From assembly GCF_017348835.2 (NCBI RefSeq), contig NZ_CP071375.1: a stretch of 64,000 bases of DNA; one strand, 5' to 3'. Made by a program: the position numbers and the translations under genes. This document shows positions 17,257 to 18,937 of the stretch, piece after piece (the stretch's first letter is position 1; every line of letters starts with the position of its first letter). The notes below the pieces were generated by a model. That model worked only from the letters and a program-made list of their open reading frames with translations, did no database searches and was not told the origin of the DNA. Source of the DNA: Escherichia coli. Lineage in GTDB: Bacteria; Pseudomonadota; Gammaproteobacteria; Enterobacterales; Enterobacteriaceae.

Positions 17257-17357
17257 AAGCATTCGTCGTCAAAGGGAGGAATATTCATGATATGCTACCA
17301 CTTTGGGCCCTGGTGGACCAGAAAAGGGCTTGTCTCTTCTCATCAGGGTAGCTATAG

Positions 17358-17753
<396 letters not shown>

Positions 17754-17794
17754 CACTTTTCGGTTTACTGTGGTAGAGTAACCGTGAAGACAAA

Positions 17795-17978
17795 ATTTCT
17801 CTGAGATGTTCGCAAGCGGGCCAGTCCCCTGAGCCGATATTTCATACCACAAGAATGTGGCGCTCCGCGGTTGGTGAGCATGCTCGGTCCGTCCGAGAAG
17901 CCTTAAAACTGCGACGACACATTCACCTTGAACCAAGGGTTCAAGGGTTACAGCCTGCGGCGGCATCTCGGAGATTCC
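17795..17978 (+). ncRNA. ssrS: 6S RNA
   Basis: Sequence atttctctgagatgttcgcaagcgggccagtcccctgagccgatatttcatacc...ggagattccc matches remembered 6S RNA over its full length; sits between zapA and ygfA. Confidence 0.9.
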
Positions 17979-17998
17979 CTTCTTATCTGGCACCAGCC

Positions 17999-18601
17999 AT
18001 GACGCAACTACCAGAACTCCCACTGACATTATCCCGACAAGAAATCCGCAAAATGATTCGGCAACGTCGTCGTGCGTTAACGCCGGAACAACAGCTGGAA
18101 ATGGGTCAACAAGCCGCTACCCGGATGATGACTTATCCCCCGGTGGTGATGGCACATACGGTCGCTGTATTCCTCTCTTTTGATGGAGAACTCGACACCC
18201 AGCCGCTTATAGAACAACTCTGGCGCGCCGGTAAGCGCGTATATCTTCCAGTTTTGCATCCCTTTAGTGCCGGTAATTTGCTGTTCCTGAATTACCATCC
18301 GCAAAGCGAACTGGTGATGAACAGGTTGAAGATCCATGAGCCAAAACTGGATGTGCGTGACGTGCTACCCCTTTCCCGATTAGACGTGTTGATCACACCG
18401 CTGGTCGCCTTTGATGAGTACGGTCAGCGCCTGGGAATGGGCGGTGGTTTTTATGATCGGACCTTACAAAACTGGCAGCACTATAAAATGCAACCGGTGG
18501 GTTATGCGCATGATTGTCAGTTGGTGGAAAAACTCCCCGTTGAAGAGTGGGATATCCCACTGCCTGCGGTGGTTACACCGTCGAAAGTCTGGGAGTGGTG
18601 A
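17999..18601 (+). CDS. ygfA: 5-formyltetrahydrofolate cyclo-ligase
   Basis: ORF track 17855-18601 begins inside ssrS; realistic start is ATG 17999 (MTQLPELPL..., 200 aa) or ATG 18053 (MIRQRRR..., 182 aa). Confidence 0.85.
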   Translation: MTQLPELPLTLSRQEIRKMIRQRRRALTPEQQLEMGQQAATRMMTYPPVVMAHTVAVFLSFDGELDTQPLIEQLWRAGKRVYLPVLHPFSAGNLLFLNYHPQSELVMNRLKIHEPKLDVRDVLPLSRLDVLITPLVAFDEYGQRLGMGGGFYDRTLQNWQHYKMQPVGYAHDCQLVEKLPVEEWDIPLPAVVTPSKVWEW

Positions 18602-18649
18602 GGGCGACACACCTGCATCGCCCTGATTGACATCGTTGATTCTTTGACC

Positions 18650-18800
18650 TAATTTAGTGAGTAAGGGTAAGGGAGGATGACTCCTCCCCTGAGACTGACT
18701 GTTAATAAGCTGGGAAACTTATGAGTAACAGTACAATCAGTATGATGACAAATCGCATCATAACCCTTCTCCTTTAAGCCCTCGCTTCGGTGAGGGCTTT
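18650..18800 (+). ncRNA. sibC: SibC antitoxin sRNA (boundaries approximate)
   Basis: Antisense to ibsC, ends in hairpin gccctcgcttcggtgagggc at 18778-18797; position between ygfA and serA as remembered for sibC. Confidence 0.55.
18702..18761 (-). CDS. ibsC: type I toxin IbsC (19 aa hydrophobic peptide)
   Basis: Reverse strand atg atg cga ttt gtc atc ata ctg att gta ctg tta ctc ata agt ttc cca gct tat taa = MMRFVIILIVLLLISFPAY; below the ORF-track size cutoff. Confidence 0.8.
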   Translation of the reverse strand: MMRFVIILIVLLLISFPAY

Positions 18801-18937
18801 ACCGTTACAGCCCTGTGCTGTCCCGCCATCGTAAATCCCCATTAAATAAACACAACGCATTGATCTGACTTTGATTTATTTTCTGGAGCAGACTCGCAAA
18901 GTAGAATGCGCAACGCGGCAACGGTGTGGAGAAGGGA

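What the first reader, a model, noticed from the sequence alone, without database searches (positions are those of the whole stretch)
17795..18601. ORF-track artefact: the 248-aa ygfA ORF begins inside 6S RNA
The first 48 codons of the longest ORF lie within ssrS; the real ygfA start is downstream (17999 or 18053), consistent with the known ssrS-ygfA co-transcript.
Basis: partly seen in the sequence, partly recalled or inferred. Interest (0 to 1): 0.15.

Follow-up and report, generated by a model that had tools for sequence, protein, structure and literature searches.

The report
Spurious long ORF running through 6S RNA
The 248-codon reading frame is an accident: its first part is the well-known 6S RNA gene (ssrS), and the real folate enzyme gene ygfA/fau starts 21 bases after the RNA ends, at 17999. 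This is ordinary, already-known E. coli biology.

Summary
The finding is correct and ordinary. Rfam places a full-length 6S RNA (ssrS) at 17795-17978 on the + strand (139.8 bits, cut-off 46.4). The longest ORF is 17855-18601 (248 aa), and its ATG lies inside ssrS.

- The ORF starts at 17855. 17795 is the 5' end of 6S.
- Of the 48 extra codons, 41 lie in ssrS. The other 7 cover the last base of ssrS and the 20-nt spacer.

The extension exists only in Escherichia. One base of 6S, C17912, reads CGA there, while all 57 non-Escherichia loci read TGA. The 6S-to-ygfA spacer length falls in all three frames across genera.

The true start is 17999 (200 aa), not 18053 (182 aa):
- Met1 is invariant in 64 of 64 Enterobacteriaceae loci, and R13, Q14, I16 and R17 upstream of residue 19 are conserved with synonymous variation. 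Residue 19 is Met in only 15 of 64.
- Pfam, TIGRFAM, NCBIfam and four solved homologues align from residues 4-14.
- NCBI's PGAP annotation pipeline uses 17999.
- Published tetracycline ribosome profiling mapped K-12 initiation to ATG -54, which is 17999.

K-12 RefSeq and UniProt still list 182 aa.

None of the three ATGs has a Shine-Dalgarno sequence. The first ~75 nt after 6S are C-rich and G-poor in every locus, which fits the published Rho-dependent termination inside ygfA. Everything here is already known, so interest is low.

The parts
17750..17779 (+). Promoter-like site for ssrS, in the position of the known proximal promoter P1: ATGACA, 18-nt spacer, TG-extended TAGAGT
   Evidence: The consensus scan gives 9 of 12 matches with TG before the -10 hexamer. 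The in-frame stop TAG 17774 that bounds the long frame lies inside this -10 hexamer. Calling it P1 rests on my knowledge of the K-12 locus and was not tested here.
17795..17978 (+). ssrS, 6S RNA
   Evidence: Rfam RF00013 full-length hit, 139.8 bits, E=2e-29. It is 100% identical over 184 nt to K-12 ssrS (L003). It is annotated as the ncRNA ssrS in RefSeq genomes.
17855..18601 (+). Longest ORF (248 aa). Its 5' 144 nt (17855-17998) are an artefactual extension
   Evidence: Pfam and NCBIfam find no match before residues 52-61 of this ORF. The extension is closed by stops in every non-Escherichia genus. This exact 248-aa sequence appears in public collections only on two short Logan contigs.
17912..17912 (+). 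The single 6S base (C) that keeps the frame open in Escherichia. The codon is CGA here and TGA in all other genera
   Evidence: In one search all 57 non-Escherichia loci have TGA at this position and 6 of 6 Escherichia sequences have CGA. In the minimum-free-energy fold, C118 pairs with G73, so U or C are both compatible with the helix.
17979..17998 (+). 20-nt pyrimidine-rich spacer between the 6S 3' end and the ygfA start, with no Shine-Dalgarno sequence
   Evidence: Sequence CTTCTTATCTGGCACCAGCC. Anti-SD duplex energy is -1.5 kcal/mol, against a null median of -2.0 and -7.8 for zapA. Spacer length is 14-24 nt in 61 of 64 loci, with length mod 3 spread 23/22/19.
17999..18601 (+). fau (ygfA), 5-formyltetrahydrofolate cyclo-ligase, 200 aa: the best-supported coding sequence
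   Evidence: PGAP CDS WP_050938835.1. NF007661 equivalog scores 445.7 bits over residues 4-200; TIGR02727 and PF01812 start at residue 13. Met1 is invariant in 64 of 64 loci. TetRP maps a new start at ATG -54 in K-12.
18053..18055 (+). Internal ATG (Met19): the start used by the K-12 MG1655 and UniProt annotation (182 aa), probably not the main start
   Evidence: K-12 b2912 runs 3056241-3056789. Residue 19 is Met in 15 of 64 loci, Leu in 28, and I, V, T, Q or other residues in the rest. The 182-aa form loses Pfam profile positions 1-7.
17979..18064 (+). C-rich, G-poor, weakly structured stretch covering the spacer and codons 1-22, with the composition of a Rho-loading (rut) site
   Evidence: 60-nt windows give C 0.38 / G 0.12 at 17975-18034 and C 0.32 / G 0.13 at 18005-18064, against C/G of about 1 elsewhere. 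The bias holds in all 64 loci: median C/G 2.5, minimum 1.83, against 0.96 later in the CDS. The 60-nt window around 17999 is among the least structured 9%. No intrinsic terminator lies after 6S.

Best explanation
17795-17978 is ssrS, the gene for 6S RNA. The gene for 5-formyltetrahydrofolate cyclo-ligase (fau/ygfA) follows on the same strand and starts at ATG 17999, 21 nt after the 6S 3' end, giving a 200-aa protein. The 248-aa ORF is a mechanical artefact. In the ygfA frame the 6S sequence happens to contain an ATG (17855) and, in Escherichia only, no stop codon, because 6S position 118 (17912) is C (CGA) rather than the U (TGA) found in other genera. How the locus works (shown in published work, not here): ssrS and ygfA are transcribed as one unit, most transcripts end by Rho-dependent termination inside the 5' part of ygfA and are trimmed back to mature 6S, and read-through transcripts carry ygfA. 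Inferred here: ygfA is translated from an unstructured, C-rich leader without a Shine-Dalgarno sequence. That same stretch has the composition of a Rho-loading site, so weak initiation at 17999 and Rho loading probably compete.
For: 6S: full-length Rfam hit, 100% identity to K-12 ssrS, and RefSeq annotation. Artefact: no family model covers ORF residues 1-51. In 57 non-Escherichia loci the frame is closed at -49, -66 or -74 nt relative to the 6S 3' end, or by stops inside the long spacers of three Klebsiella-type loci. A single C/T difference at 17912 accounts for the open frame. Spacer lengths fall in all three frames, 23/22/19. A stop-free run this long occurs in about 5% of shuffles. Start at 17999: M1 64/64, T2 63/64, R13 64/64, Q14 63/64, I16 63/64 and R17 64/64, with variation concentrated at third positions (entropy for codons 12-18 is 0.49/0.12/1.10 bits). 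Escherichia differs from the other genera by a 2-codon in-frame indel in this stretch. M19 is Met in only 15 of 64 loci. Alignments to four solved homologues begin at residues 12-14, which correspond to residue 3 of B. subtilis YqgN and Aquifex MTHFS and to residue 9 of human MTHFS (E. coli R13 and R17 align with human K10 and R14). NF007661 is a 198-position model matching residues 4-200. PGAP calls 17999. TetRP Table S2 row 100 lists ygfA ATG -54, class '1. new site', with read depth 150.5/4.68/0.62 against 0/1.75/0.33 at the annotated site (PMC4909307). [quoted passage not shown] 2011. Co-transcription and conserved linkage are stated in PMC2848244 and PMC7641849. The C-rich, G-poor composition is conserved and there is no intrinsic terminator after 6S. 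The same layout (6S, then 12-15 nt, then ATG) occurs in Pasteurellaceae.
Against: ATG 17999 has no Shine-Dalgarno sequence, which is probably why the shorter form was once annotated, although 18053 has none either. TetRP counts for ygfA are low in two of three samples (ratios 3.8 and 1.7), and no N-terminal peptide was found. The curated K-12 record and UniProt 5FCL_ECOLI still use 18053. I could not read Chae et al. 2011 or Trotochaud & Wassarman 2004, so the position of the Rho stop and the identity of the start mutated in their M2 construct are second-hand or unknown. The proposed competition between Rho loading and translation is inference from composition only.
Confidence: 0.85

Rival explanations
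1. ygfA starts at ATG 18053 (182 aa), as in the K-12 MG1655 and UniProt annotation, and 17999-18052 is untranslated leader.
For: The curated K-12 record uses this start. The 182-aa form is widespread in databases. It still scores 153.6 bits against PF01812. ATG 17999 lacks a Shine-Dalgarno sequence.
Against: Met19 is absent in 49 of 64 Enterobacteriaceae loci, and those loci have no other in-frame start until about residue 35-43. Codons 12-18 show a coding-type substitution pattern and invariant R13 and R17. Family models and solved homologues align upstream of M19. TetRP signal lies mainly at -54. ATG 18053 has no Shine-Dalgarno sequence either.
Confidence: 0.05
2. In Escherichia and the few other lineages that have Met19, both 17999 and 18053 are used, giving a 200-aa and a minor 182-aa isoform.
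For: TetRP shows small non-zero counts at the annotated site in two of three samples (1.75 and 0.33). The same paper reports many genes with dual initiation. Met19 recurs in Escherichia, Pseudocitrobacter, the C. amalonaticus group and S. arizonae.
Against: The authors class ygfA as '1. new site', meaning signal mainly at the new site. Residue 19 varies freely among hydrophobic residues (L, M, I, V) as expected for a helix position, not for a start codon. The short form would lack the conserved R13 and R17.
Confidence: 0.12
3. The 248-aa ORF is really translated in Escherichia from unprocessed ssrS-ygfA precursor, giving an N-terminally extended enzyme.
For: The frame is open and has an ATG in all Escherichia species sampled. 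A gene caller produced the 248-aa product on two short contigs.
Against: ATG 17855 has no Shine-Dalgarno sequence (+0.3 kcal/mol) and sits in the paired body of 6S. The extension matches no family. It is conserved only because it is 6S sequence, and it is closed by TGA in every other genus. TetRP lists ygfA only at -54 in the supplement passages retrieved, with no -198 entry among them. PGAP and K-12 curators do not call it.
Confidence: 0.01

Closest known systems
E. coli K-12 ssrS-ygfA (fau) dual-function transcription unit (b2911-b2912)
   Same: 6S is 100% identical. The gene order ygfB / zapA-ssrS-fau-sibC/ibsC-serA is the same. The two in-frame ATGs are the same. The protein differs from K-12 at a few residues, for example L33 against Q and M174 against T (one search compared with the K-12 sequence).
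   Different: Nothing structural. The only difference is in annotation: K-12 and UniProt start the protein at Met19 (182 aa), whereas PGAP and the evidence here favour Met1 (200 aa).
6S RNA family (Rfam RF00013)
   Same: Full-length, high-scoring match with the closing stem, central bubble and terminal stem aligned.
   Different: None. Escherichia carries C instead of U at position 118, which pairs with G73 in the MFE fold.
5-formyltetrahydrofolate cyclo-ligase / MTHFS family (PF01812, TIGR02727, NF007661; solved structures 1YDM, 1SOU, 2JCB, 3HXT)
   Same: The whole domain is present from profile position 1. The N-terminal [K/R]-x-x-[I/L]-R helix aligns with the N-termini of the solved bacterial enzymes.
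   Different: The enterobacterial proteins carry a variable extra N-terminal peptide of 9-11 residues (MTQLPELPLTL here) encoded by the C-rich stretch.
Other spurious ORFs over structured RNA genes (a general gene-calling artefact)
   Same: A stop-free frame running through a conserved non-coding RNA is merged with a real downstream CDS. The antisense 108-aa ORF 17703-18029 over ssrS is a second example in this window, and Aggregatibacter segnis shows the same effect at its own 6S-ygfA junction.
   Different: Here the artefact extends a real gene in frame rather than creating a free-standing false gene.

Membership tests
6S RNA (Rfam RF00013) | Covariance-model score at or above the curated gathering score, over the full model | tested here: met
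   139.8 bits against 46.4, model positions 1-187 of 187, E=2e-29.
6S RNA (Rfam RF00013) | Long closing stem formed by the 5' and 3' ends, with an internal central region, as in the consensus structure | tested here: met
   The cmscan structure line shows both ends paired with only two non-canonical pairs. The MFE fold pairs positions 4-15 with the 3' end, at -80.5 kcal/mol.
6S RNA (Rfam RF00013) | Identity and synteny with the experimentally characterised E. coli ssrS (zapA upstream, ygfA downstream) | tested here: met
   100% identity over 184 nt to K-12; the neighbouring genes are the same.
6S RNA (Rfam RF00013) | Binds sigma-70 RNA polymerase holoenzyme and templates product RNA (pRNA) synthesis | not testable with these tools
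   Known for the identical K-12 RNA (PMC3299989).
5-formyltetrahydrofolate cyclo-ligase (PF01812 / TIGR02727 / NF007661) | Score above the curated cut-off of the equivalog models, over the full length | tested here: met
   NF007661 445.7 bits (cut-off 343), residues 4-200. TIGR02727 177.1 bits (cut-off 84.9), residues 13-194. PF01812 161.9 bits, profile positions 1-186.
5-formyltetrahydrofolate cyclo-ligase (PF01812 / TIGR02727 / NF007661) | Complete N-terminal helix carrying the [K/R]xx[I/L]R motif, present only if translation starts at or before codon 13 | tested here: met
   The motif is present in the 200-aa form as R13-Q-E-I-R17, invariant in 64 of 64 loci and aligned to human K10 and R14 and to the Aquifex and B. 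subtilis N-termini. It is absent from the 182-aa form. A role of these residues in ATP binding is my recollection and was not verified here (searches found nothing).
5-formyltetrahydrofolate cyclo-ligase (PF01812 / TIGR02727 / NF007661) | ATP-dependent conversion of 5-formyl-THF to 5,10-methenyl-THF | not testable with these tools
   This is an enzyme assay. The papers read here mostly describe the E. coli enzyme as predicted or putative.
ssrS-ygfA co-transcription unit with Rho-dependent 3' end formation | Same strand, short gap, and no intrinsic terminator between the RNA gene and the CDS | tested here: met
   The gap is 20 nt. The only terminator-like site in 17300-18900 is at 18428, deep inside the CDS.
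ssrS-ygfA co-transcription unit with Rho-dependent 3' end formation | C-rich, G-poor, weakly structured RNA downstream of 6S (rut-like composition) | tested here: met
   C/G is 3.3 at 17975-18034. The bias is conserved in 64 of 64 loci. The region is in the least structured 9% of windows. This is composition only, not proof of Rho binding.
ssrS-ygfA co-transcription unit with Rho-dependent 3' end formation | Demonstrated dicistronic transcript and Rho-dependent termination within ygfA | not testable with these tools
   Taken from the literature: PMC3299989 citing Chae et al. 2011, PMC2848244 and PMC7641849. The primary paper was not available.

The most novel reading that the evidence does not exclude
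The conserved leader (C-rich, no Shine-Dalgarno sequence) plus the variable first ~11 codons of ygfA act as one dual-purpose element. It would be both the Rho-loading site that makes the 6S 3' end and the ribosome-entry site for ygfA. Ribosome loading at 17999, flush against the 6S closing helix, would then decide case by case whether a transcript becomes 6S only or 6S plus enzyme. The layout is kept from Enterobacteriaceae to Pasteurellaceae (a 12-24 nt gap in 65 of the 68 loci measured), while the C-rich composition was measured only in the 64 Enterobacteriaceae loci. As a corollary, the K-12 reference protein (182 aa) lacks 18 real residues, including two invariant arginines.
Probability: 0.4. 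Interest if true: 0.3.

Novelty: already known. Interest (0 to 1): 0.08.

Why it matters
It matters mainly as annotation hygiene. A naive longest-ORF track, and at least one automated gene call on short contigs, fuse part of a regulatory RNA gene onto an enzyme. Three different N-termini (248, 200 and 182 aa) circulate in public databases for the same E. coli gene. The comparative data here, together with published initiation profiling, say that the 200-aa form is the real one. The widely used K-12 and UniProt model is therefore probably 18 residues short, missing two invariant arginines of the first helix. That is relevant to anyone expressing or modelling the enzyme. No new biology is implied.

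Tried and rejected
- I tried to read Chae et al. 2011 (by DOI and as PMC3012964), Kim & Lee 2004 (PMC534622) and Trotochaud & Wassarman 2004 (PMC451630). None is held. The exact Rho stop site and which ATG their 'M2' start-site mutant hit therefore remain unverified.
- I looked for independent initiation-profiling evidence. The Ribo-RET preprint does not mention ygfA in its text and no supplements are held. The supplements of Giess et al. 2017 do not list ygfA. A full-text search for ygfA with 'start codon' and 'ribosome profiling' found nothing.
- I tried to confirm from the literature that human MTHFS K10 and R14 are ATP-site residues. The search only returned Arg145 papers, so that point is left as unverified recollection.
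- I considered the GGAG at 17970-17973, in the 6S 3' strand, as a Shine-Dalgarno sequence for 17999. I rejected it because it lies 25 nt upstream (19-29 nt across genera) and is paired in the 6S closing stem.
- I considered that the 2588-member cluster represented by the 248-aa protein P0001 meant the artefact is called thousands of times. The exact look-up rejected this: the members read are mostly 200-aa forms, and the 248-aa sequence is on two short Logan contigs only.
- Colwellia (L063) gave no 6S hit at the gathering threshold. I did not pursue it.

Full report
**Observation**

The ORF list gives one long + strand ORF at 17855..18601 (248 aa, ATG). Its frame is open back to TAG 17774-17776. 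Rfam's 6S model (RF00013) matches 17795-17978 on the + strand over the whole model, at 139.8 bits against a gathering score of 46.4 (E=2e-29). So the ORF's ATG lies 60 nt inside a full-length 6S RNA gene.

Two details need correcting. The finding's start coordinate, 17795, is the 5' end of 6S and not of the ORF. And 48 codons do precede the next in-frame ATG at 17999, but only 124 nt (41 codons plus 1 nt) of them lie in ssrS. The last 20 nt (17979-17998) are the spacer.

**Identity of the locus**

A 1-kb query matches 5,425 of 5,426 complete E. coli genomes at 95% identity or more, and it is 100% identical to strain PE164.

- In PE164, NCBI's PGAP annotation pipeline annotates zapA, then ssrS (window 17795-17978), fau (window 17999-18601, 200 aa, WP_050938835.1), an Ibs toxin, and serA.
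- O157 strain TR01 and strain 2015C-3163 have the same ssrS and fau calls.
- The curated K-12 MG1655 record instead starts fau (b2912) at the equivalent of 18053, giving 182 aa.

An exact-sequence look-up shows that all three N-termini exist in public collections:

| Form | Where it is found |
|---|---|
| 248 aa | Two short Logan contigs only |
| 200 aa | NCBI/PGAP, 233 contigs |
| 182 aa | A K-12-like 182-aa sequence named 5FCL_ECOLI in UniRef is on 571 contigs; the window's own 182-aa sequence is in Logan only, on 2 contigs |

**Why the 248-aa ORF is an artefact**

- No family model covers its first 51 residues. PF01812 starts at ORF residue 61 and NF007661 at residue 52.
- I fetched 68 loci from species-representative genomes and located 6S and the ygfA frame in each. 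Only Escherichia has the frame open into 6S. Elsewhere it is closed by stops at -49, -66 or -74 nt from the 6S 3' end, depending on the frame, or by stops inside the long spacers of three Klebsiella-type loci.
- The 6S-to-ATG spacer is 14-24 nt in 61 of 64 loci, and its length mod 3 is spread 23/22/19. No reading frame is maintained across the junction.
- Among genera that share E. coli's frame, one base makes the difference. 6S position 118 (17912) is C in Escherichia (CGA) and T in all 57 other loci (TGA).
- In the folded RNA this base pairs with G73, so C or U both preserve the helix. The change is neutral for the RNA and removes a 'stop codon' by accident.
- Shuffling shows that 4.7% of sequences of this composition would have 74 stop-free codons by chance, which is unremarkable.
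- ATG 17855 has no Shine-Dalgarno sequence (+0.3 kcal/mol).

**Which start is real**

The evidence for 17999 comes from four independent directions.

- *Conservation.* In an alignment of 64 Enterobacteriaceae sequences, Met1 (17999) is invariant, T2 is 63/64, and R13, Q14, I16 and R17 are 63-64 of 64. All of these lie upstream of residue 19. Their variation is concentrated at third codon positions (codons 12-18 have entropy 0.49/0.12/1.10 bits at positions 1/2/3). Escherichia differs from the other genera by an in-frame 2-codon indel in this stretch (198 aa against 200 aa). Residue 19 (18053) is Met in only 15 of 64 loci; it is Leu in 28 and Ile, Val or other residues in the remainder. Genera without Met19 have no other in-frame start before about residue 35-43.
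- *Family models and structures.* PF01812 and TIGR02727 begin at residue 13 of the 200-aa form, and the 182-aa form loses Pfam profile positions 1-7. The enterobacterial equivalog NF007661 is 198 positions long and matches residues 4-200. Alignments to solved homologues begin at residues 12-14, which correspond to residue 3 of B. subtilis YqgN (1YDM) and Aquifex MTHFS (1SOU) and to residue 9 of human MTHFS (3HXT). E. coli R13 and R17 align with human K10 and R14.
- *Annotation.* PGAP uses 17999.
- *Experiment.* Tetracycline-inhibited ribosome profiling of K-12 (Nakahigashi et al. 2016, PMC4909307) lists ygfA with a new initiation site at ATG -54 and gives the sequence MTQLPELPLTLSRQEIRKMIRQ... 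It is classed '1. new site', with read depth 150.5/4.68/0.62 at the new site against 0/1.75/0.33 at the annotated one. ATG -54 is the equivalent of 17999.

There are caveats. The read counts are low in two of the three samples, and no N-terminal peptide was recovered. A minor contribution from Met19 in Escherichia therefore cannot be excluded.

**How the locus works**

*From the literature (not shown here).* ssrS and ygfA are co-transcribed, and the arrangement is conserved across gamma-proteobacteria and beyond (PMC2848244; PMC7641849). [quoted passage not shown] 2011). I could not obtain the primary paper.

*Shown here.*

- A promoter-like ATGACA-18-(TG)TAGAGT sits at 17750-17779.
- No intrinsic terminator follows 6S.
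- None of the candidate starts has a Shine-Dalgarno sequence: -1.5, -0.7 and +0.3 kcal/mol, against -7.8 for zapA.
- The first 60-90 nt after 6S are distinctively C-rich and G-poor (C 0.38, G 0.12; C/G 3.3). This property holds in all 64 loci, with a median C/G of 2.5 against 0.96 later in the gene.
- The same region is among the least structured 9% of 60-nt windows.
- Pasteurellaceae loci show the same layout of 6S, a 12-15 nt gap with no obvious purine-rich Shine-Dalgarno motif (judged by eye; no duplex energy was computed), then ATG.

*Inferred.* This stretch serves both as the Rho-loading site and as an unstructured ribosome-entry site without a Shine-Dalgarno sequence. Inefficient initiation at 17999 would leave most transcripts to Rho, yielding 6S only, while occasional translation would protect read-through into ygfA.

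**Comparison with what is known, and verdict**

Everything here corresponds to the characterised E. coli ssrS-ygfA unit. The RNA is identical to K-12 6S, and the protein meets the equivalog models for 5-formyltetrahydrofolate cyclo-ligase. The long ORF is a known type of gene-calling artefact over a structured RNA gene. An antisense 108-aa ORF over ssrS (17703-18029) is a second example, and Aggregatibacter segnis shows the same effect.

The finding is correct, ordinary and already known. Its only practical by-product is that the K-12 and UniProt 182-aa model is probably 18 residues too short. This was already reported by initiation profiling in 2016 and is already adopted by PGAP.

Noticed in passing
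window 18627-18777 (+) and 18702-18761 (-): A type I toxin-antitoxin pair lies between fau and serA. The Sib antitoxin RNA (Rfam SIB_RNA, 137.2 bits) is antisense to a 19-aa Ibs toxin ORF, MMRFVIILIVLLLISFPAY (PGAP call). The toxin ORF is too short for the ORF list.
   Followed up: partly
L072 1303-1754 (E. coli 2015C-3163); hits H9-H11; L002 (O157 TR01): The copy number of the ibs/sib module between fau and serA varies among E. coli strains. Some strains carry two Ibs toxin genes, with about 392 bp extra. The O157 strain has none annotated, and the match ends at query base 934.
   Followed up: partly
window 17703-18029 (-): A 108-aa ATG ORF on the opposite strand spans the whole of ssrS. It is a second ORF-track artefact over the same RNA gene.
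   Followed up: no
L031 1399-1500, L037 1376-1500, L050 55-153: Three loci (Klebsiella spallanzanii, 'Enterobacter sp. 10-1' and an uncultured Klebsiella) have 99-125 nt between 6S and the ygfA ATG instead of about 20. They share a TGTATTA[A/C]ACT motif that looks like a -10 element, so ygfA may have its own promoter there.
   Followed up: no
L003 (K-12 MG1655) 1242-1790 compared with window 17999-18601: The K-12 reference record (b2912, NP_417387.3) and UniProt 5FCL_ECOLI keep the 182-aa start. PGAP, the conservation data and TetRP support the 200-aa start.
   Followed up: yes
L066 1324-1500 (Aggregatibacter segnis): The ygfA frame is also open into this species' own 6S gene, with an in-frame ATG (MISTNSLEP...). 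The same artefact therefore arises independently in a distant lineage.
   Followed up: partly
cluster 1 (P0134): A 200-aa E. coli-type YgfA is recorded in NCBI under Staphylococcus aureus (WP_113608265.1). This is probably a contaminated assembly.
   Followed up: no
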